This document shows, in pieces, positions 7,872-13,740 of a stretch of 64,000 bases of DNA. Positions within the stretch are counted from its first letter, which is position 1, and each line of letters starts with the position of its first letter. The stretch is from a virus. A model generated the notes under the pieces. The model was not told the origin of the DNA and did no database searches. It was given only the letters and a program-made list of their open reading frames with translations. Location of the stretch: IMG/VR virus record IMGVR_UViG_3300005096_000137, positions 64,001 through 128,000 of that record; one strand, written 5' to 3'. The translations under genes were made by a program, and so were the position numbers.

Positions 7872-8507
7872 GTGTTGAATCGACGTGACTTGTTAAAGAT
7901 GTTCGGCGTGGGGGCAGTCTCAGCCACCATCCCAGCATCCCTCTCTCGGGCTGTGGTTCCTAAGAACGAGATTGTTGAGGTGCCTTGGCAGGAACCTCCT
8001 GAGGCGGCACCCTTTGGGTTCGCTGACCCTCCCCCGAAACCAGATGAACTGGATGACCTGGTTGAGAACCTGCCCGTCCCGGCTCCCGTCGATGCAGTTC
8101 ATGAGAGCCTCAGGGGTCAGGGGTTAGTCAGGCTGGATGAACATGGTGTGGTTACGTTTCACAACACCAATACTGACGAGAAGGTACATCTCAAAATACA
8201 CGAGGGTTCCATGGCCTATGGGCAAAGTATGGATGTGCAGTTTAGTCATGACCGAGGTCGACTGACTGTGCCGAATGCCAGCCATGGTCCCCTAGAGGTC
8301 AGTTTGTACGCACGTATTGCAGAAGTGGTCTCCCCTAACCCTGGTTGGCTTCAGACAATTCGGAGTGCAGGTCCAGAGGGCCTGGATATGATCATCTCGT
8401 TGCCGAACTCTGACCTACTGGTACTGTTTTCCAGGTTGGTGTACCAGTCGATGTCTCTCGACCCCAAAGAAGGGCTATTTGAAATTGAAGGGGTATGCTA
8501 CAATTGA
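7872..8507 (+). CDS. Tat signal peptide protein with probable tail-tube-like domain
   Basis: NRRDLLKMFGVGAVSA, Pro-rich linker, beta-rich domain (LKIHEGSMAY...DRG.L...PLEVSL...FEIEGVC). The tail tube assignment is inference. Confidence 0.6.
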   Translation: MLNRRDLLKMFGVGAVSATIPASLSRAVVPKNEIVEVPWQEPPEAAPFGFADPPPKPDELDDLVENLPVPAPVDAVHESLRGQGLVRLDEHGVVTFHNTNTDEKVHLKIHEGSMAYGQSMDVQFSHDRGRLTVPNASHGPLEVSLYARIAEVVSPNPGWLQTIRSAGPEGLDMIISLPNSDLLVLFSRLVYQSMSLDPKEGLFEIEGVCYN

Positions 8508-9379
8508 GCTATGATTATGAAGTTGCTGGGCATGTCTACGTCGTCCCACTCCATGACATCTACGTGGACCCTGATTTCAATTGCCGGGGTGCATTTGCTC
8601 CTCATGAAGTTCACGGACTTGGTCAGAGTATCTCGGAAGAAGGTCAACGGGCTCCCATAGTTGTCCAACCTCTGGACGACGTCCCTGGACCAGAGCAGCC
8701 CCTGGGTGACTGGACCTTTCGTTTGATCGCCGGACATCGCCGCTACATGGCAATCGATAAATGGTCTACGGGTACTACTATCAACTGTGTGGTGGAGAGG
8801 GGACTGACCCGTGAACAGGCTTGCACTCTTAACTTCTCAGAGAATCTCCAGAGAAAGGACCTGAACATCTTGGAGGAGGCTCGCGCACTCCACCGCACCT
8901 GGCCAATCCAGTCATTGGGCATGATCTCAAAACTCATTGGGAAACCTAAGAAGTGGATCCACGCTCGCCGGATGCTCCTCCAGCTCCCTGATTACGTCCA
9001 GACACGGGCAGCCAGTAACGGTATTTCCCAGTACGATATCCTAATGCTTGCCAAACTCCCGCCCGACAGGGTGGAGGCAGCCTACGAGAAGCTGACTTCG
9101 TCAAAAGGAAAGACGGGGCGACGACCAGTGGTAGCCGGCAAACAGAAGTGGAGAAACCGACCTCGGGGAATCAATGAAATCTCAAAGATGGTCGCATTCC
9201 TGCTCCGCCACCAGCGATTCTCAGAACTTTCCGAAGCCGAAATTACTCTGGTCACGTCAACCCTGGTCTGGGTCACTAAAGGCATTGACGCACAGGAGTT
9301 ACTAGAGAACAGGTTTGGCTTCCCCGAGGGCAGCGTGGCTATCGATTCCACTGACGAAATTGAGGGAATGAAAGATTAG
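8495..9379 (+). CDS. ParB/Spo0J-like protein
   Basis: FNCR, GQRAPIVV, LIAGHRRYMA, NFSENLQRKDLNILEEA, then HTH. Confidence 0.88.
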   Translation: MLQLSYDYEVAGHVYVVPLHDIYVDPDFNCRGAFAPHEVHGLGQSISEEGQRAPIVVQPLDDVPGPEQPLGDWTFRLIAGHRRYMAIDKWSTGTTINCVVERGLTREQACTLNFSENLQRKDLNILEEARALHRTWPIQSLGMISKLIGKPKKWIHARRMLLQLPDYVQTRAASNGISQYDILMLAKLPPDRVEAAYEKLTSSKGKTGRRPVVAGKQKWRNRPRGINEISKMVAFLLRHQRFSELSEAEITLVTSTLVWVTKGIDAQELLENRFGFPEGSVAIDSTDEIEGMKD

Positions 9380-9404
9380 CCGCAGGTTTTATTGAAATTG
9401 GTTC

Positions 9405-9432
9405 TTGACTTCCCGGACCCATCGAGTATACT
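9405..9432 (+). promoter_or_regulatory. sigma70-type promoter for the ncRNA array
   Basis: TTGACT-16-TATACT. Confidence 0.75.
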
Positions 9433-9542
9433 TGGTAATAGAACGTGCCAAAGATTCAAGACTAATTCCAGCCAAAAGAGCTGGTGAACTCTAACTTGAG
9501 GACAGAACGATGTAGTTGGCTGGGTGAAAGCCCAGCACCCTT

Positions 9543-9667
9543 GGAGGGGTAGCTCAGTTGGTAGAGCGCCAGTAGCATAAAAACAGTTGTGACAAACTTG
9601 CTATTAAGCCGAACATAGCTGATTATCTCGGAACTGGATGTCGCGGGTTCGAGACCCGCCCCCTCCG
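9543..9667 (+). ncRNA. tRNA-shaped RNA with a Y-RNA module replacing the anticodon loop
   Basis: Acceptor GGAGGGG/CCCCTCC, D arm GCTC-AGTTGGTA-GAGC, stem CCAGT/ACTGG, T arm GCGGG-TTCGAGA-CCCGC. The 59-nt insert contains CAGTTGTG/CATAGCTG, ACTTG, AAGCCGAA and TTATC. Confidence 0.85.
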
Positions 9668-9669
9668 CT

Positions 9670-9734
9670 GCCTAAGCCGAAGTCAATGCGTTATCTTTCA
9701 TATGATTACCCGCACCGACATTCACTTGCCAGGC
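9670..9734 (+). ncRNA. minimal Y-RNA-like stem-bulge RNA
   Basis: GCCT/AGGC, AAG/CTT, unpaired CC, GAA/TTC, GTC/GAC, TGCG/CGCA; loop begins TTATC. Confidence 0.8.
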
Positions 9735-9759
9735 TATTTTAGATGTAGACCAATACTTT

Positions 9760-9878
9760 ACGGGGGTAGCTCAGTTGTTAGAGCACCAGCTCGGGCCATT
9801 ACGACAAACTGTCCGGACAGTCTTGTATAACGGGTCACAGGGAGCTGGGGGTCGGTGGTTCAATTCCTCCTCCCCGTA
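9760..9878 (+). ncRNA. tRNA-shaped RNA with a long hairpin in place of the anticodon loop
   Basis: Acceptor ACGGGGG/TCCCCGT, D arm GCTC/GAGC, CCAGCTC/GAGCTGG, T arm GGTGG-TTCAATT-CCTCC. Insert hairpin ACAA-ACTGT-CCGG-ACAGT-C-TTGT. Confidence 0.8.
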
Positions 9879-9883
9879 CTACT

Positions 9884-9949
9884 GCCTAAGCCGAAATCAA
9901 TGCGTTATCTTTCATATGATTACCCGCATTAACATTCACCTGCTATGGC
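9884..9949 (+). ncRNA. minimal Y-RNA-like stem-bulge RNA (copy 2)
   Basis: Near-identical to 9670..9734 with stems retained (AATGCG/CGCATT). Confidence 0.8.
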
Positions 9950-10037
9950 GTTTTGAGTGTAGACCACGGACTACGAGCATCTTAGGCTGCTTATGGCCCT
10001 GGGGTCTCAGTTGTAGTTCAAGTCTGCCGCACTCACC

Positions 10038-10109
10038 TTGGGCGAAGCCGCAGCTCATGCGTTATCCTTGTAAGATTTGCCGCATACAGCATCGACTTGC
10101 TAAGCCCAA
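10038..10109 (+). ncRNA. minimal Y-RNA-like stem-bulge RNA (diverged copy 3)
   Basis: TTGGGC/GCCCAA closing stem, AAGCCG, GCT/AGC, ATGCG/CGCAT, TTATC, ACTTG. Confidence 0.75.
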
Positions 10110-10200
10110 TAATACAAAGTCCCCGCCTTCGGGTGGGGCGTTCGCACAAAGTCCCTGTCCGCCCTTATGGCGGGCAGGGTAGTGATTCAAGGAGAGTAAT

Positions 10201-10572
10201 GTGTCTGATTACGATGAGTTTGAATCTGAGTTTGAAGCCGAGGAATTCAAGGCAGAAATCAAACAGATGCAAGCAGAGTCGCAAGGGGTGGCTCTAGACC
10301 ACGCAATTTATCGAGAAGCTTCACAGCATGCTGTGTTTGATGAATGGCAGATAGTCTCTTTATTGAACCAAGATGCCTACTTCGTGGATGGTTGTGATCT
10401 GGAAGCTGATCCCAAGACAGGTAAGTGTGTCTGTGTGATTCTCCGAGAGAAGGATGAGGGTACTGGTAAAATGTGTAACCACTATTATACACTGAAGAAT
10501 GCCCTGATCCGCCTCCGTCACATAACGCCCAACTTGTTCCTCGCGAACGTGAAGGGGCAATCGGATGACTGA
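10201..10572 (+). CDS. hypothetical protein, PxLF-motif paralog 1
   Basis: AAGGAG RBS; YTLKNALIRLRHITPNLF. Confidence 0.7.
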   Translation: MSDYDEFESEFEAEEFKAEIKQMQAESQGVALDHAIYREASQHAVFDEWQIVSLLNQDAYFVDGCDLEADPKTGKCVCVILREKDEGTGKMCNHYYTLKNALIRLRHITPNLFLANVKGQSDD

Positions 10573-10891
10573 CTCCAAGATACCAACCGAGTTGGAATTG
10601 GCTGAAAAGAAGTACCATTATTTAGTGATTCGAGAATCCATTTTGAAAGCCGCGAAATCACACCGGGTTTACTGGCCATTGCAGATTCTCCTACTTCTTA
10701 GGGACCAAGCTTATATTGAAGGTGGCTATGGTGGCAATTCATATGAGATTCCTTCTGGTGTGGTGCGCGTGAATCTGGATGTAAAAACCTTGAATCCTAC
10801 CAGTCCGGCGAAAAGACTCTATTCTTTAGATCGTGTTATGAAACGACTTCGGCAAATTCATCCAAGTCTATTTAACCTGGGGGTTGAATAA
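10565..10891 (+). CDS. hypothetical protein, PxLF-motif paralog 2
   Basis: YSLDRVMKRLRQIHPSLF. Confidence 0.7.
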   Translation: MTDSKIPTELELAEKKYHYLVIRESILKAAKSHRVYWPLQILLLLRDQAYIEGGYGGNSYEIPSGVVRVNLDVKTLNPTSPAKRLYSLDRVMKRLRQIHPSLFNLGVE

Positions 10892-10896
10892 CCAGA

Positions 10897-11463
10897 ATGA
10901 ACTTTCAGAATACGACTGGGAATTATGCCATTGCAGCCGGTCTGGCCGCTTCTGCGCATACTAAGCAACGTCGGAAAGACCCTGATAGGACCCCCTACAT
11001 CAATCACCCACTTGAAGTTGCCGTCCTCTTAACATATGATGGGCAAGTGGATGATGTGGATACTCTGATCGCAGCAGTCCTTCATGATGTTGTGGAAGAT
11101 ACAGATATCACGCTAGGTTTTATCTTCACCCTGTTTGGTCCCCGAGTGAGGGACATCGTGGCCGAGGTTACTGACGACAAGTCGCTCCCGAGTGCAACAA
11201 GGAAGCAACTACAAATTGACAACGCCCCTGGTAAGTCAGACGCCGCCAAGATGATTAAGATCGCGGATAAGATAGTCAATATCCAAGACATGAGCACAGA
11301 GTCCCCTGTTGGCTGGTCGACTGACCGGAAGTTCGAGTACATTGATTGGGCGACGAAAGTCGTGGCAGGTTGTGCCGGCGTGAATTCTAATTTGGATGCC
11401 ATATTTCACAGTGCGGCTATCCAAGCCAAAGCCAACTGTACTACTGTTGGGAACCATGAGTAA
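10897..11463 (+). CDS. HD-domain small alarmone hydrolase (MESH1/SpoT-HD-like)
   Basis: PYINHP, AAVLHDVVEDT, EVTDDKSLP, RKQLQI, IKIADK. Confidence 0.9.
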   Translation: MNFQNTTGNYAIAAGLAASAHTKQRRKDPDRTPYINHPLEVAVLLTYDGQVDDVDTLIAAVLHDVVEDTDITLGFIFTLFGPRVRDIVAEVTDDKSLPSATRKQLQIDNAPGKSDAAKMIKIADKIVNIQDMSTESPVGWSTDRKFEYIDWATKVVAGCAGVNSNLDAIFHSAAIQAKANCTTVGNHE

Positions 11464-11526: not shown

Positions 11527-11844
11527 ATGGCAATTACTTTAGACACCACCTATCACGGCGTAGTTCAAGAGGTCCGTAACCTAAGCTACCAATGGGCAGA
11601 CAATTTGGTCGCCCTCTTGATTGTCGAAGCGGCTATGAAGCAAGGGGCTTTTAATCCACAGCAGGTCCGGGTACTTTTAGCAGACGGAGCCACGACTAAT
11701 CCTAATGTCAATCCTCATTTTGGATTACCTCGGGACTTTGAGGTCCGGATAAGTAACAGCCACACAGGGGGTGTCGGGATGTCTCTTGAACAGGCAGTGA
11801 GTTACTTGAAAGAGACCCAGCCCAATTTGTTCCTGGCTGACTAA
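11527..11844 (+). CDS. hypothetical protein, PxLF-motif paralog 3
   Basis: GGAG RBS; MSLEQAVSYLKETQPNLF. Confidence 0.7.
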   Translation: MAITLDTTYHGVVQEVRNLSYQWADNLVALLIVEAAMKQGAFNPQQVRVLLADGATTNPNVNPHFGLPRDFEVRISNSHTGGVGMSLEQAVSYLKETQPNLFLAD

Positions 11845-11851
11845 TACATGT

Positions 11852-11984
11852 AGTCCAAGAGCAACGGAATCAGAACCGAATAATGACTCTAAACTGAATC
11901 GACAAATCTGACCACCCTGGGTGGAGTCCGAGAGCAACGGAATCAGAACCGAATAATGACTCTAAACTGAATCGACAAATCTGA
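11852..11984 (+). repeat. two 60-bp direct repeats separated by a 13-nt hairpin
   Basis: Copies at 11852-11911 and 11925-11984 differ at one base; spacer CCACC-CTG-GGTGG. Confidence 0.95.
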
Positions 11985-11990
11985 ATCGAT

Positions 11991-12137
11991 GCGACTGTGG
12001 TGTAATGGTAGCACACATACTAACTAGGTTGTCAATAACTTGCGCAGAAGAAGTACCTTCGGGGAACCACGCTGAGCCGAATGTTAACCGTTATCTCTTG
12101 CACGAGTGTGGACTAGGTTCAATTCCTAGCAGTCGTT
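11991..12137 (+). ncRNA. tRNA-shaped RNA with a Y-RNA module in the anticodon position, directly upstream of Ro60
   Basis: Acceptor GCGACTG/CAGTCGT, D arm GTGT-AATGGTA-GCAC, CATACT/AGTGTG, T arm CTAGG-TTCAATT-CCTAG. Insert contains GGTTG/TAACC, ACTTG, a cTTCGg hairpin, GAGCCGAA and TTATC. Confidence 0.85.
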
Positions 12138-12165: not shown

Positions 12166-13740
12166 ATGTCCTACTCAACTGATATTGGTCGAACTGATCA
12201 AGTTACTAACAACCAAGGTGGTCGTGTCTTCCAGATTGACTGCTGGGCACGCCTAGAGCGGTTCCTCATTCTTGGACACGAGGGTGGGAGCTACTACGCC
12301 GAGCAGCAGAAGCTGACTCTTGAGACAGTTGTTTGTATTGATGAGTGTCTGGCTGAAAGTTCGTACCTCATGGTGAAGGCTATCGTGGACATCAGCCAAT
12401 CAGGACGGGCTCCAAAGAATGACCCGGCCATCTTTGCGCTTGCCTACGTAGTGTCAAAGAAGGACGAGTCATCCCAGTATGCGCTCAAGTTTCTGGGGGA
12501 TGTGTGTCGGATTGGGACACATCTTGCTCAGTTCCTAAATCACTGTAAGAACCTTGGCAGAGGTTGGGGTCCATCATTCACGCGGGCAGTTGCTGAGTGG
12601 TACAACCGTGATCCAGAACGGCTTGCCATGCAGGTGACAAAATACGCGAACCGAAAAGGGTGGACACATCGTGACATTCTCCGCAAGGCGCACCCTTCGT
12701 CCAAGGATAAGAAGCTTGACAACATCTTCTGTTACCTGACCCAACATGCGAAGTGGTCACGCCGGAAGAACTCGGGACCTGCTGATGAGTTCCTGTGTGC
12801 GGTGGATGAAGCTAAGGACTCAAAAACGACCGTGGCTCGGCTCGTGGAACTAATTCAGTTGTATGGGCTGGTGCGCGAGCACATGCCAACCAATGCTTTG
12901 AACAATCGAGAAGTCTGGATGGCGCTGCTTCAAAACATGCCACTCACGGCAATGATTCGCAACCTGGGTAAGATGTCCAGCATTCGACTCCTCACACCCC
13001 TGAGCACTGGTTCAAAGCTGGTGCGGTCTGCACTCGAAGACTCTGGAAACCTAAAGAAACAACGGGTTCATCCCTTGTCATTACTGATTGCGCTCAAGCA
13101 ATATGGCGAAGGTCAGGGTCTTCGTGGCTCCCTTACTTGGGACCCTGTCCCACAGATTATGACAGGCTTGGACAATGCCTTCTATGAGGCGTTTGACTTC
13201 GTGGAGCCGACCAATAAGAACCACCTCCTAGGTGTTGATGTCTCAGGCTCTATGGACTGGACCAACTGTGTTGGGGCAGGTGTTCTCAAATGTTCCGAGG
13301 GTGCAGCAGCTATGGCTATGCTGGCAGCTCGGACAGAAGAGAACACGCACGTCTTTGGTTTTGCCGACGATTTCCGTGACCTGGGTATCACTGCTTCAGA
13401 TTCCTTGCAGACTGCATTGAAGAAGACCGAGACTGGGACCTTCGGCGGTACGGATTGTGGACTCCCCATGCACTACGCCGCCAATCATGGGATTGAGGTG
13501 GATGTGTTCTGCGTCTACACGGACAATGAAACGGGTGGTGGCTACTACAGTCGGACCAAGGACCCACACCAGGAACTTGAACGCTACCGGCAGACAATGG
13601 GACGGGACGCTAAACTGGCAGTGTTCGGGATGGCACAGAACGAGTTTAGTGTTGCTGATCCTAAAGACGCTGGGCAAATGGACTTTGTTGGATTTGATGC
13701 GTCGGCTCCAACTTTACTTGCGAACTTCGTTCGTGACTGA
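12166..13740 (+). CDS. rsr: Ro60/Rsr ortholog (TROVE + vWA domains)
   Basis: NNQGG..F, RLERFLILGHEGGSYY, KYANRKGWTHRDILRKAHP, MPLTAMIRNLGKM, MIDAS DVSGSM, GGTDC, YTDNET, GFD. Confidence 0.95.
   Translation: MSYSTDIGRTDQVTNNQGGRVFQIDCWARLERFLILGHEGGSYYAEQQKLTLETVVCIDECLAESSYLMVKAIVDISQSGRAPKNDPAIFALAYVVSKKDESSQYALKFLGDVCRIGTHLAQFLNHCKNLGRGWGPSFTRAVAEWYNRDPERLAMQVTKYANRKGWTHRDILRKAHPSSKDKKLDNIFCYLTQHAKWSRRKNSGPADEFLCAVDEAKDSKTTVARLVELIQLYGLVREHMPTNALNNREVWMALLQNMPLTAMIRNLGKMSSIRLLTPLSTGSKLVRSALEDSGNLKKQRVHPLSLLIALKQYGEGQGLRGSLTWDPVPQIMTGLDNAFYEAFDFVEPTNKNHLLGVDVSGSMDWTNCVGAGVLKCSEGAAAMAMLAARTEENTHVFGFADDFRDLGITASDSLQTALKKTETGTFGGTDCGLPMHYAANHGIEVDVFCVYTDNETGGGYYSRTKDPHQELERYRQTMGRDAKLAVFGMAQNEFSVADPKDAGQMDFVGFDASAPTLLANFVRD

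What the first reader, a model, noticed from the sequence alone, without database searches (positions are those of the whole stretch)
9670..10109. Three minimal Y RNAs resembling metazoan Y and nematode stem-bulge RNAs
Seen: 65-72-nt hairpins with unpaired C residues in AAGCCG, an opposite AC(T/C)TG strand and an apical loop starting TTATC, with no tRNA domain. Established: human Y1 has GUCCGAAG...GUUAUC and 3' ACUUGAC, and nematode sbRNAs carry UUAUC. Inference: such close motif spacing in a phage RNA bears on the origin of animal Y RNAs.
Basis: partly seen in the sequence, partly recalled or inferred. Interest (0 to 1): 0.7.

Follow-up and report, generated by a model that had tools for sequence, protein, structure and literature searches.

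The report
Short Y RNAs beside phage Ro60
A large uncultured phage that carries its own Ro60 protein also encodes three roughly 65-72-base hairpin RNAs of the kind that dock on Ro60. They belong to a large family found beside Ro60 genes in many phages and bacteria, and the core of that family matches nematode stem-bulge RNAs almost base for base.

Summary
H1 (9670-9734), H2 (9884-9949) and H3 (10038-10109) are three hairpins on the + strand. Each has a GCCG(A/C)A 5' strand with one bulged C, an AC(U/C)UG 3' strand, a 9-bp upper stem and a loop starting UUAUC. They lie about 2.1-2.5 kb upstream of a Ro60 (TROVE+vWA) gene on the same strand.

A covariance model built from them found 210 relatives, all on the Ro60 strand, in 46/80 viral and 55/80 bacterial Ro60 loci, with strong covariation. 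A model trained only on the bacterial members hits exactly these three sites in the window.

They are therefore new members of a known kind: short bacterial/phage Y RNAs, like YrlB, Yrn2 and phiLo Yrl2.

The animal resemblance is partly upheld:
- The Rfam nematode sbRNA model scores H1 at 22 bits, below its threshold, but four relatives pass it.
- The vertebrate Y_RNA model never hits.
- GYCGNN-N9-UUAYC spacing holds in about 92% of members.

The phage itself is not special. Bacterial Y RNAs share the core, and bacterial Ro60s score nearer animal Ro60 than this phage's does. "No tRNA domain" holds only for the hairpins; two are directly preceded by tRNA-shaped elements. Other notes of this scan cover this same genome, not other DNA.

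The parts
9405..9432 (+). Sigma-70-like promoter (TTGACT, 16-nt spacer, TATACT) placed to drive the RNA array
   Evidence: 10 of 12 consensus matches. One such site is expected by chance in the region, so only its position supports it.
9543..9667 (+). tRNA-shaped element 1. It has a 7-bp acceptor stem, D arm and T arm, and its anticodon loop is replaced by a Y module closed by a loop (ACUUGC-UAUU-AAGCCGAA-N9-UUAUC), which makes it a circular permutation of YrlA. Its 3' end abuts H1.
   Evidence: Rfam tRNA 52.6 bits with a 59-nt insert; fold. The same layout occurs in L098, L101 and L110. Covered by another report of this scan.
9670..9734 (+). Y RNA hairpin H1. Terminal stem GCCU/AGGC; G-C and C-G pairs; bulged C9678; G.U and A-U pairs; 9-bp upper stem; UUAUC at 9691-9695; AUC/GAU mini-helix; 3' AUUCAC bulge followed by UUGC.
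   Evidence: R1/R2/R3 hits. Rfam RF01656 22.1 bits. Fold -15.9 kcal/mol, z -2.7.
9760..9878 (+). tRNA-shaped element 2, with a long anticodon arm lacking a recognisable Ro60 motif. Its 3' end lies 5 nt before H2.
   Evidence: Rfam tRNA 47.4 bits with a 52-nt insert; fold.
9884..9949 (+). Y RNA hairpin H2, a near copy of H1. The 3' strand reads ACCUGC, which gives an A x C mismatch at a position that 20 of 82 distinct family members also leave unpaired.
9955..10037 (+). Structured spacer before H3. It has a 6-bp end stem GAGUGU/GCACUC and a T-loop-like GUAG-UUCAAGU-CUGC. It is not a tRNA by covariance model.
   Evidence: Fold z -1.0; no tRNA hit at E<=10. The acceptor/T-arm reading is by eye only.
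10038..10109 (+). Y RNA hairpin H3. Terminal stem UUGGGC/GCCCAA; AAGCCGCAG with bulged C10049; UUAUC at 10062-10066; ACUUGC at 10095-10100.
   Evidence: R1 E 3e-4 (H3 was not in R1's training set). R3 29.0 bits, E 4.5e-4.
10121..10180 (+). Two G+C-rich hairpins after the array, each preceded by CAAAGUCCC and without a U tract. They may mark the transcript end or protect it.
   Evidence: Sequence. Not called as terminators by the scan.
11991..12137 (+). Second tRNA-shaped permuted Y RNA. Acceptor GCGACUG/CAGUCGU; ...AACUUGC...GAGCCGAAUGUUAACCGUUAUC...; T arm. It ends 28 nt before the Ro60 start codon.
   Evidence: Sequence read, following a lead from earlier finding e1-5762893.
12166..13740 (+). 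Phage Ro60 ortholog (524 aa), the presumed protein partner of the hairpins
   Evidence: Pfam vWA_Ro60 2.5e-51 and TROVE 1.6e-35. PDB RO60 9nen 372 bits, Xenopus 1yvp 371 bits, D. radiodurans Rsr 357 bits.

Best explanation
H1, H2 and H3 are short-form Y RNAs, the RNA partners of the phage-encoded Ro60 protein.

**Shown**
- They belong to a large conserved RNA family that lies beside Ro60 genes, always on the Ro60 strand, in phages and in bacteria of many phyla.
- The family has a fixed architecture, read from the ends inward:
  1. A terminal stem.
  2. A G-Y / R-C helix interrupted by one bulged C, followed by a G.U pair and an A-U pair.
  3. One unpaired A opposite a 5-6-nt ANNAC bulge.
  4. 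A 9-bp upper stem that covaries freely.
  5. Two invariant unpaired U residues.
  6. A short helix (A)YC/GR(U) that closes a small variable loop.

**Inferred**
- The bulged-C helix docks on the outer face of the Ro60 ring, as in the Xenopus Ro60-Y RNA structure.
- The UU + YC/GR element lies about one helical turn away. That spacing is held at 9 nt in about 92% of members. The element is either a second contact with Ro60 near the mouth of its cavity, or a fixed kink that aims the distal part of the RNA.
- Without a tRNA-like effector module, these minimal forms would mainly occupy, stabilise or gate Ro60. The tRNA-shaped Y RNAs of the same locus would tether Ro60 to a tRNA-binding factor or to host PNPase.
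- The array is probably one transcript from the promoter-like site at 9405-9432. Host tRNA-end enzymes would cut it: RNase P at the 5' ends of the tRNA-like bodies, and RNase Z or equivalent just after their discriminator bases. This would create hairpin 5' ends with 2-5-nt leaders.

The shared core with nematode sbRNAs and vertebrate Y RNAs marks a pan-domain Y RNA module, not a feature of this phage.
For: - **Partner gene.** Ro60 lies on the same strand about 2.1 kb downstream.
- **Family size and placement.** R2 found 85 hits in 46/80 viral Ro60 loci and 125 hits in 55/80 bacterial Ro60 loci. All 210 are on the Ro60 strand, none is inside the gene, and the median distance is 230-420 nt.
- **Covariation, viral set.** 93.3% of cells are paired against 68.1% in shuffles. 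There are 373 double changes against 103, and slid controls give 26-46%.
- **Covariation, bacterial set.** 92.7% against 75.4%, and 390 double changes against 73.
- **Conserved positions.** The bulged C is C in 83/88. The pair next to it switches C-G to U-A (60 vs 22). The G.U pair occurs in 71/82. UU is present in 88/88. The loop helix has Y-R as UA 46 / CG 7 / UG 5 and C-G in 73/74.
- **Spacing.** 9 nt in about 92%.
- **Test with a model not trained on the window.** R3, trained on bacterial members only, hits only H1, H2 and H3 in the window.
- **Published motif.** GCCGAAG fits the GNCGAAN0-1G motif of bacterial Y RNAs (PMC4201824). Simple hairpin Y RNAs that bind Ro60 are known: YrlB and Yrn2 in the same paper, and phiLo Yrl2 in PMC12135203.
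- **Processing.** A hairpin starts 2-7 nt after a tRNA-like 3' end here and in L098, L101 and L110. M. smegmatis YrlA is cut by RNase P, and its YrlA and YrlB come from one precursor (PMC4201824).
Against: - No binding, expression or end-mapping data exist for this phage; all RNA ends are inferred from structure.
- H2 and H3 deviate from the core. H2 has an A x C mismatch. H3 reads GCCGCAG. Each scores only about 29 bits with the bacterial-only model.
- Their individual folds are not unusually stable (z -1.8 and -1.1).
- The hairpins lie about 2.1-2.5 kb from Ro60 with four ORFs between, further than the family median.
- Alignments A5 and A7 were fitted to the model's structure, which inflates pair counts somewhat.
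- The role given to UUAYC is inference only. In animals the known minimal Ro60 site is the lower stem, and UUAUC has been tied to DNA replication activity (PMC4726728).
- The promoter match is no better than chance.
Confidence: 0.85

Rival explanations
1. The hairpins are not released as separate minimal RNAs. Each stays joined to the tRNA-shaped element upstream, or the whole array stays in one piece. The functional RNA would then be a multi-module scaffold that carries several Ro60 rings together with tRNA-like effector handles.
For: - Only 2-5 nt separate each tRNA-like 3' end from the next hairpin.
- tRNA-like 2 has no Ro60 motif of its own, so tl2+H2 together would supply both modules of a YrlA.
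- phiLo Yrl1 has two CGAA hairpins and forms higher-order Ro60 complexes (PMC12135203).
- Tandem arrays of 2-6 modules are common in the family.
Against: - 7-bp acceptor stems with T arms are classic RNase P and RNase Z substrates.
- M. smegmatis YrlA is cleaved by RNase P in vivo, and its YrlA and YrlB are processed from one precursor (PMC4201824).
- Most family members (74 of 79 short viral ones, judged by eye from the upstream sequences) have no tRNA-like element directly upstream, so the hairpin can stand alone.
Confidence: 0.3
2. The likeness to nematode sbRNAs and vertebrate Y RNAs is convergence, or a shared constraint imposed by a conserved Ro60 surface. On this view it is not descent of the RNA from a common ancestor and says nothing about where animal Y RNAs came from.
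For: - The shared letters are few, about 25-30 nt, and sit in the part that a conserved protein would constrain.
- The vertebrate Y_RNA model never hits.
- The upper stem covaries freely, so matches there are partly luck.
- The Rfam consensus for enterobacterial YrlA has AACUAC where this family has UUAUC, so the motif can be lost or replaced.
- The literature treats bacterial Y RNAs as not homologous to the vertebrate clades (PMC4726728).
Against: - The match extends beyond the known Ro60 site. The 9-nt spacing is the same, GGGUUAUC is shared, and so is the (A)CCAAC/ANNAC bulge before UUG.
- Four members pass a curated nematode family threshold.
- C. elegans sbRNAs were not recovered with the worm Ro60 protein (ROP-1) in worm extracts (PMC4726728), so present-day Ro60 binding does not readily explain the motif in them.
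- The associated Ro60 proteins of these bacteria score as high or higher against animal Ro60 than against Deinococcus Rsr.
Confidence: 0.45
3. The hairpins are only transcription terminators or tRNA-trailer processing hairpins and have no Ro60 role.
For: H1 and H2 are followed by UUUU. A run of four or more T follows 26/79 short viral family members, against 3% background.
Against: - Terminators do not keep a bulged C, a G.U pair, a fixed 9-bp stem and UUAYC across phyla.
- They do not track Ro60 genes on one strand in 101 loci.
- Only 6/73 bacterial members have the T run.
- The terminator scan calls none of them.
Confidence: 0.03

Closest known systems
Short hairpin bacterial/phage Y RNAs: S. 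Typhimurium and M. smegmatis YrlB, D. radiodurans Yrn2 (Chen et al. 2014, PMC4201824), and Thermus phage phiLo Yrl2 (PMC12135203)
   Same: They are encoded near Ro60 on the same strand. [quoted passage not shown] They often occur alongside a tRNA-like Y RNA in one precursor.
   Different: - YrlB had no detectable homologs outside Salmonella by BLAST (PMC4201824). The family here spans many phyla and is defined by covariance.
- A fixed N9 spacer and the UUAYC/GR helix are not described for those RNAs in the papers I could read.
- Here each hairpin abuts a tRNA-shaped element.
YrlA (Rfam RF02553), the tRNA-mimicking Y RNA
   Same: It has the same Ro60-binding lower module. Canonical YrlA-type relatives in these loci carry GYCGRAG-N9-UUAYC before the T arm (L145 7659-7798). 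A conserved UA that kinks the stem at this junction is reported for YrlA (bioRxiv 10.1101/312249).
   Different: - H1-H3 have no T arm, D arm or acceptor hairpin in the loop, and give no RF02553 hit.
- The only YrlA match in the region is a partial 18-bit match at 9517-9567, in the leader and the start of tRNA-like 1.
- The Rfam YrlA consensus shows AACUAC where this family has UUAUC.
Nematode stem-bulge RNAs (Rfam RF01656, ceN72-3_ceN74-2)
   Same: The core matches at nucleotide level. The sbRNA consensus is ...GGUCCGGaGucgaUGGGUUAUC...CCCAucgaCACCAACUUGACC. The consensus of the bacterial family (R3) is GCGGGCCGaAGcaugUGGGUUaUC...CCCAcaugCAaccACuUGCCCGC. They share the bulged C, the 9-nt spacing, the UUAUC and the bulge before UUG. 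Four relatives pass the gathering score.
   Different: - H1 reaches only 22.1 bits, and H2 and H3 do not hit.
- sbRNAs are eukaryotic RNAs of about 130 model positions with large loops.
- sbRNAs act in DNA replication, and C. elegans sbRNAs were not recovered with the worm Ro60 protein in worm extracts (PMC4726728).
- Homology is not shown.
Vertebrate Y RNAs (Rfam RF00019)
   Same: According to the literature they have a Ro60 site made of a helix with a single bulged C and a bulge on the opposite strand, plus a UUAUC motif in the loop next to the upper stem (PMC4726728).
   Different: - There is no covariance-model hit at any threshold tried.
- They have larger, protein-binding loops.
- I did not compare sequences directly, because no vertebrate sequence is held by the tools.
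D. radiodurans Y RNA, Yrn1 (Rfam RF01053)
   Same: The Rfam consensus begins GgCCgaAGuGGuCaCGGUUa, that is GCCGAAG, about 10 nt, then UUA. Its binding to Ro60 (Rsr) is shown experimentally (PMC4201824).
   Different: It is a much larger RNA with a PNPase-binding distal part. Only weak hits occur here: 20 bits on an L145 hairpin and 35 bits on an L250 long form.

Membership tests
Bacterial/phage Y RNA (criteria of Chen et al. 2014) | Encoded within about 4 kb of a Ro60 ortholog, on the same strand | tested here: met
   The hairpins at 9670-10109 and Ro60 at 12166-13740 are both on the + strand. All 210 family hits are on the Ro60 strand.
Bacterial/phage Y RNA (criteria of Chen et al. 2014) | GNCGAAN0-1G motif on the 5' strand of the stem formed by the RNA's two ends | tested here: met
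   H1 has GCCGAAG, an exact fit. H2 has GCCGAAA and H3 has GCCGCAG, each one letter off and within the family's variation.
Bacterial/phage Y RNA (criteria of Chen et al. 2014) | Bound by the Ro60 ortholog | not testable with these tools
   Needs a gel shift or co-immunoprecipitation.
YrlA (Rfam RF02553) | tRNA-like T arm, closed acceptor hairpin and D arm in the distal part; score at or above 69 bits | tested here: not met
   No RF02553 hit on H1-H3 at E<=10. Their loops are only 15-20 nt.
Nematode sbRNA (Rfam RF01656) | Covariance-model score at or above the gathering score of 38 bits | tested here: not met
   H1 scores 22.1 bits; H2 and H3 give no hit. Relatives L250 (42.5), L195 (41.0), L221 (39.3) and L102 (38.1) do meet it.
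Vertebrate Y RNA (Rfam RF00019) | Covariance-model match | tested here: not met
   No hit at E<=10 on H1 alone, on the 1-kb region, or on relatives.
Metazoan-type Y RNA core (literature definition) | Helix with a single bulged C and an opposite-strand bulge, plus UUAUC in the loop next to the upper stem | tested here: met
   Bulged C in 83/88, 5-6-nt 3' bulge and UUAYC. The definition is taken from PMC4726728.
The family defined here (models R2, R3) | Significant score with a model that does not contain the window's own sequences | tested here: met
   R3, built from bacterial members only, scores H1 at 38.5 bits (3.9e-6), H3 at 29.0 bits (4.5e-4) and H2 at 28.9 bits (4.6e-4). There are no other hits in 64 kb.

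The most novel reading that the evidence does not exclude
The bulged-C helix, the 9-bp ruler and the UU + YC/GR element together form one ancestral Y RNA core. It is shared by bacteria, their phages, nematode sbRNAs and vertebrate Y RNAs. If so, animal Y RNAs and sbRNAs are true homologs of bacterial Y RNAs and moved between domains together with Ro60. The UUAUC motif, known in animals only for DNA-replication activity, would have begun as part of the Ro60 particle, as a second protein contact or a fixed kink. A possible lead on the route is that Ro60 of a Verrucomicrobiia MAG scores highest against animal RO60 (451 bits) and that Verrucomicrobial Y hairpins are the ones that pass the nematode model's threshold.
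Probability: 0.35. Interest if true: 0.75.

Novelty: new member of a known kind. Interest (0 to 1): 0.6.

Why it matters
- **For the phage.** A roughly 148-kb uncultured phage carries a complete Ro60 particle kit. It has the protein, three minimal Y RNAs and tRNA-shaped Y RNAs, presumably to redirect host RNA decay or RNA quality control during infection.
- **For the field, family size.** Short Y RNAs were thought to elude homology search. Here they form a large family that a model can detect: 210 members in 101 of 160 Ro60 loci.
- **For the field, animal link.** The family's core matches the nematode sbRNA consensus closely enough that four members pass Rfam's curated threshold.
- **A testable question.** The role of UUAUC becomes testable in a simple protein-RNA pair from bacteria or phages. 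The result also reopens the published view that bacterial Y RNAs are unrelated to animal ones.
- **Limit.** None of this singles out phages as the source of animal Y RNAs.

Tried and rejected
- **DNA similarity search.** blastn of 9380-10200 against the GenBank phage collection gave no match.
- **ARAGORN.** It calls no tRNA in the window.
- **Close-relative search.** Searching viral contigs with the single Ro60 protein found nothing. An alignment of 20 homologs was needed.
- **Exact-pattern scan.** TAAGCCGAA-N8-10-GTTATC in viral contigs returned 95 stretches, roughly what I would expect by chance; I did not use them.
- **MAFFT.** Its alignment of the three hairpins, and of the tRNA-shaped elements, misplaced the stems. 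I used model-based alignments instead.
- **Canonical YrlA upstream of tRNA-like 1.** The partial 18-bit YrlA match at 9517-9567 suggested one. I rejected it because there is no GNCGAA strand upstream, the hairpin there has a 5-nt loop rather than a T loop, and the 7-bp acceptor pairings of both tRNA-like bodies covary in the tRNA topology.
- **Terminator reading.** Rejected on the comparative evidence.
- **Ro60 tree with animal sequences.** Not possible. No tool returns animal Ro60 as a usable sequence, so I compared bit scores against the three PDB Ro60 entries instead. One query (L250) failed on an in-frame stop.
- **Literature.** The review PMC10870794 is not held.
Full report
**1. What is in the sequence**

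The window is bases 64001-128000 of a 148,427-bp viral record. Between a ParB-like ORF (8495-9379) and the next ORF (10201 onward) lies about 800 nt of non-coding DNA. On the + strand it holds, in order:
1. a sigma-70-like promoter match, TTGACT-16-TATACT, at 9405-9432;
2. a tRNA-shaped element at 9543-9667, scoring 52.6 bits on the Rfam tRNA model with a 59-nt insert in place of the anticodon loop;
3. hairpin H1 at 9670-9734;
4. a second tRNA-shaped element at 9760-9878, scoring 47.4 bits with a 52-nt insert;
5. hairpin H2 at 9884-9949;
6. an 83-nt structured stretch at 9955-10037;
7. hairpin H3 at 10038-10109;
8. two G+C-rich hairpins at 10121-10180.

ARAGORN calls no tRNA. A 524-aa Ro60 ortholog lies at 12166-13740 on the same strand (Pfam vWA_Ro60 2.5e-51, TROVE 1.6e-35).

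- AAGCCG with an unpaired C, at 9678, 9892 and 10049.
- AC(U/C)UG on the opposite strand.
- UUAUC directly after a 9-bp upper stem, at 9691-9695, 9905-9909 and 10062-10066.

**2. Are the hairpins more than chance?**

I built a covariance model (R1) from H1 and H2 alone, using a Y-RNA-like pairing scheme. I then searched 80 viral loci recovered with a Ro60 protein alignment.
- R1 found H3 (E 3e-4) and 14 further hairpins with E below 0.15. Every one is on the Ro60 strand, just upstream or downstream of the Ro60 gene.
- A second model (R2) built from those 17 found 88 hits at E<0.05. Three are H1-H3 and the other 85 lie in 46 of the 80 viral loci.
- R2 also found 125 hits in 55 of 80 bacterial genome loci. 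These include Verrucomicrobiota, Chloroflexota, Armatimonadota, Myxococcota and Alphaproteobacteria.
- All 210 hits outside the window are on the Ro60 strand. None is inside the gene. Median distances are 230-420 nt, and arrays of 2-6 copies are common.
- In the phage's own 148-kb genome R2 hits only H1-H3.
- To avoid circularity I built R3 from the bacterial hits only. In the whole window, both strands, at E<=10, it returns exactly H1 (38.5 bits, 3.9e-6), H3 (29.0 bits) and H2 (28.9 bits).

**3. Anatomy of the family**

Pair counts on the viral and bacterial sets agree:

| Measure | Viral set | Bacterial set |
|---|---|---|
| Cells paired | 93.3% | 92.7% |
| Paired in shuffles | 68.1% | 75.4% |
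| Paired in slid controls | 26-46% | 31-48% |
| Cells changed on both sides | 373 | 390 |
| Same, in shuffles | 103 | 73 |

Both alignments were fitted to the model, which flatters these numbers. The margin is nevertheless large, and all nine pairs of the upper stem vary on both sides.

Fixed features in the viral set:
- The pair below the bulge switches between C-G (60) and U-A (22).
- The bulged base is C in 83/88.
- The next pair is G.U in 71/82.
- One unpaired A follows.
- The upper stem is followed by UU in 88/88, then A (78), U or C (60/18), then C (82).
- The Y and C of that motif pair with a conserved R and G across a small loop. Y-R is UA 46, CG 7, UG 5, and C-G is 73/74. In the bacterial set C-G is 100/100.
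- The 3' strand carries a 5-6-nt ANNAC bulge before UU(G/A).

The distance from GYCGNN to UUAYC is 9 nt in about 92% of members where both motifs are found, in short and long forms alike. H1 fits this consensus exactly. H2 has an A x C mismatch at a position that 20/82 members leave unpaired. H3 has C where most have A or G.

**4. Relation to known bacterial Y RNAs**

GCCGAAG fits the GNCGAAN0-1G motif that Chen et al. (2014, PMC4201824) found in Y RNAs near Ro60 in 254 bacterial species and 22 phages. That paper describes two forms:
- YrlA, which has a tRNA-like distal domain.
- Simple long hairpins with small loops (YrlB, Yrn2), which are also bound by Ro60.

Thermus phage phiLo has two such RNAs that bind its Ro60 in vitro (PMC12135203). 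H1-H3 are of the simple type. They give no Rfam YrlA hit.

The longer hits in related loci are canonical YrlA-type RNAs and carry the same GYCGRAG-N9-UUAYC before the T arm. An example is L145 7659-7798, which scores 44.9 bits on RF02553, below its threshold of 69. The Rfam consensus of the D. radiodurans Y RNA also begins GgCCgaAG...CGGUUa.

Wang et al. (bioRxiv 10.1101/312249) report a conserved UA that kinks the YrlA stem at this junction. That is probably the UA of UUAYC. I found no paper in the held library that links a bacterial motif to the animal UUAUC.

**5. The tRNA-shaped neighbours**

'No tRNA domain' needs qualifying.
- H1 starts 2 nt after the discriminator base of tRNA-like 1, and H2 starts 5 nt after that of tRNA-like 2.
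- H3 starts 2 nt after an A that follows the end stem of the 9955-10037 element.
- The same adjacency, with a hairpin 2-7 nt after a tRNA-like 3' end, occurs in L098, L101 and L110.
- tRNA-like 1 carries a Y module in its anticodon arm with the strands in swapped order, closed by a loop: ACUUGC-UAUU-AAGCCGAA-N9-UUAUC. This is a circular permutation of YrlA. I saw it before consulting earlier notes. Another report of this scan covers it, and a second copy lies at 11991-12137.
- The acceptor stems of tRNA-like 1 and 2 differ at three positions with matching changes on the other strand. This favours the tRNA topology over a reading as tandem canonical YrlAs.

My inference is one precursor cut by host RNase P and RNase Z-type enzymes. 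M. smegmatis YrlA is cut by RNase P, and its YrlA and YrlB come from one precursor (PMC4201824). The alternative, that the modules stay joined as a multi-Ro60 scaffold, cannot be excluded.

A run of four or more T follows 26/79 short viral members, including H1 and H2, against 3% background. It follows only 6/73 bacterial ones.

**6. The animal resemblance**

Vertebrate Y RNA:
- The Rfam vertebrate Y_RNA model never hits. This holds on the 1-kb region, on H1 alone in an 79-nt search at E<=10, and on relatives.

Nematode sbRNA:
- Family RF01656 hits H1 at 22.1 bits (E 0.079 in 1 kb, 0.006 in 79 nt), below its gathering score of 38. H2 and H3 do not hit.
- Relatives do better. L250 (Limisphaerales) scores 42.5, L195 scores 41.0 and L221 scores 39.3 (both Verrucomicrobia), and the viral L102 scores 38.1. 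Ten more score 25-37.5.
- The printed alignments show what is shared: the CCGRAG strand with its bulged C, the 9-nt spacer, (U)GGGUUAUC, CCCA, and (A)CCAACUUG.
- The consensus of the bacterial-only model, GCGGGCCGaAGcaugUGGGUUaUC...CCCAcaugCAaccACuUGCCCGC, can be laid beside the sbRNA consensus with no shift.

According to Kowalski and Krude (PMC4726728):
- UUAUC is conserved in sbRNAs and vertebrate Y RNAs and is needed for sbRNA activity in DNA replication.
- C. elegans sbRNAs were not recovered with the worm Ro60 protein.
- Bacterial Y RNAs are regarded as not homologous to the vertebrate clades.

My data show that the architecture is shared at nucleotide resolution. They do not decide between common descent and a shared constraint.

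**7. Ro60 similarity**

I could not build a tree with animal sequences. As a rough substitute I scored six Ro60 proteins against the three PDB Ro60 sequences:

| Ro60 protein | RO60 9nen | Xenopus 1yvp | D. radiodurans 2nvo |
|---|---|---|---|
| This phage | 372 | 371 | 357 |
| Viral L145 | 407 | 404 | 397 |
| Verrucomicrobiia L235 | 451 | 427 | 392 |
| Myxococcota L215 | 434 | 435 | 430 |
| Rhodomicrobium L236 | 432 | 421 | 403 |
| Chloroflexota L183 | 432 | 439 | 387 |

Five of the six score higher against both animal entries than against Deinococcus Rsr. Myxococcota L215 is essentially level. This phage's protein is the furthest from animals of those tested. The phage is a carrier of a widespread bacterial system, not a special link to animals.

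**8. Mechanism, with status of each step**

| Step | Status |
|---|---|
| Family membership, covarying structure, association with Ro60 and fixed spacing | Shown |
| The bulged-C helix binds the outer face of the Ro60 ring | Inferred from the Xenopus and D. radiodurans work cited in PMC4201824 and bioRxiv 10.1101/312249 |
| The UU + YC/GR element, about 11 bp (one helical turn) from the bulged C, is a second contact or a fixed kink | Inferred from the invariant spacing |
| Minimal forms occupy or gate Ro60, while the tRNA-shaped forms tether it to an effector such as host PNPase | Inferred by analogy with the Ro60/Y RNA/PNPase complex (RYPER) and with phiLo |
| The array is processed by tRNA-end enzymes | Inferred |

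**9. Verdict**

The hairpins are new members of a known kind, short Y RNAs beside Ro60.

The added value is at the family level:
- It is a large family, detectable by a model, across phages and bacteria.
- Its core matches nematode sbRNAs closely enough for four members to pass the curated threshold.
- It has a strict 9-nt ruler.

The claim about the origin of animal Y RNAs remains open, and it is not specific to phages.

Noticed in passing
window 11854-11984: Two copies of a direct repeat of about 58 nt (GTCC-[A/G]AG-AGCAACGGAATCAGAACCGAATAATGACTCTAAACTGAATCGACAAATCTGA), with a period of 73 nt. They lie in the intergenic stretch just upstream of the second tRNA-shaped Y RNA and Ro60. They contain ACCGAAU but no UUAYC, and the Y RNA models do not hit them.
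   Followed up: no
window 9955-10037: The element before H3 shares GUAGACCA with the spacer before tRNA-like 2. It then diverges into a long imperfect hairpin with a T-loop-like GUAG-UUCAAGU-CUGC and an end stem followed by ACC. It is not a tRNA by covariance model. It may be a decayed tRNA-like body that still serves as a processing signal.
   Followed up: partly
window 10121-10180: Two strong G+C hairpins, each preceded by CAAAGUCCC and lacking a U tract, close the RNA array just before the ribosome-binding site of the next ORF (10201).
   Followed up: no
window 10897-11463: An HD-domain protein (Pfam HD_4 1.5e-13) sits between the Y RNA array and Ro60. Three small ORFs around it (10201-10572, 10565-10891, 11527-11844) have no Pfam match.
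   Followed up: no
L235, L250, L195, L221, L190 (Verrucomicrobiota genome loci): A Verrucomicrobiia Ro60 (L235) scores highest against animal RO60 (451 bits, against 392 for Deinococcus Rsr). The short Y hairpins of Verrucomicrobial loci are the ones that pass or nearly pass the nematode sbRNA gathering score. This is a possible lead on where an animal-bacterial exchange of Ro60 and Y RNA occurred.
   Followed up: partly
L145 8600-10035, L099 4270-5200, L195, L223, L248, L212: Many Ro60 loci, both viral and bacterial, have dense arrays of ordinary tRNA genes next to the Y RNA arrays on the same strand.
   Followed up: no
L172 1450-2210, L101 270-670, L162 4830-5035, L141 3680-3835: Some loci interleave canonical and permuted tRNA-like Y RNAs so tightly that a D arm of one and a T arm of the next can be read either way. 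A simple pattern scan cannot tell the two topologies apart there.
   Followed up: partly
viral family members: A run of four or more T lies within 14 nt after 26 of 79 short viral Y hairpins, against 3% background, but after only 6 of 73 bacterial ones. Phage Y hairpins may double as weak terminators or keep a U tail.
   Followed up: partly
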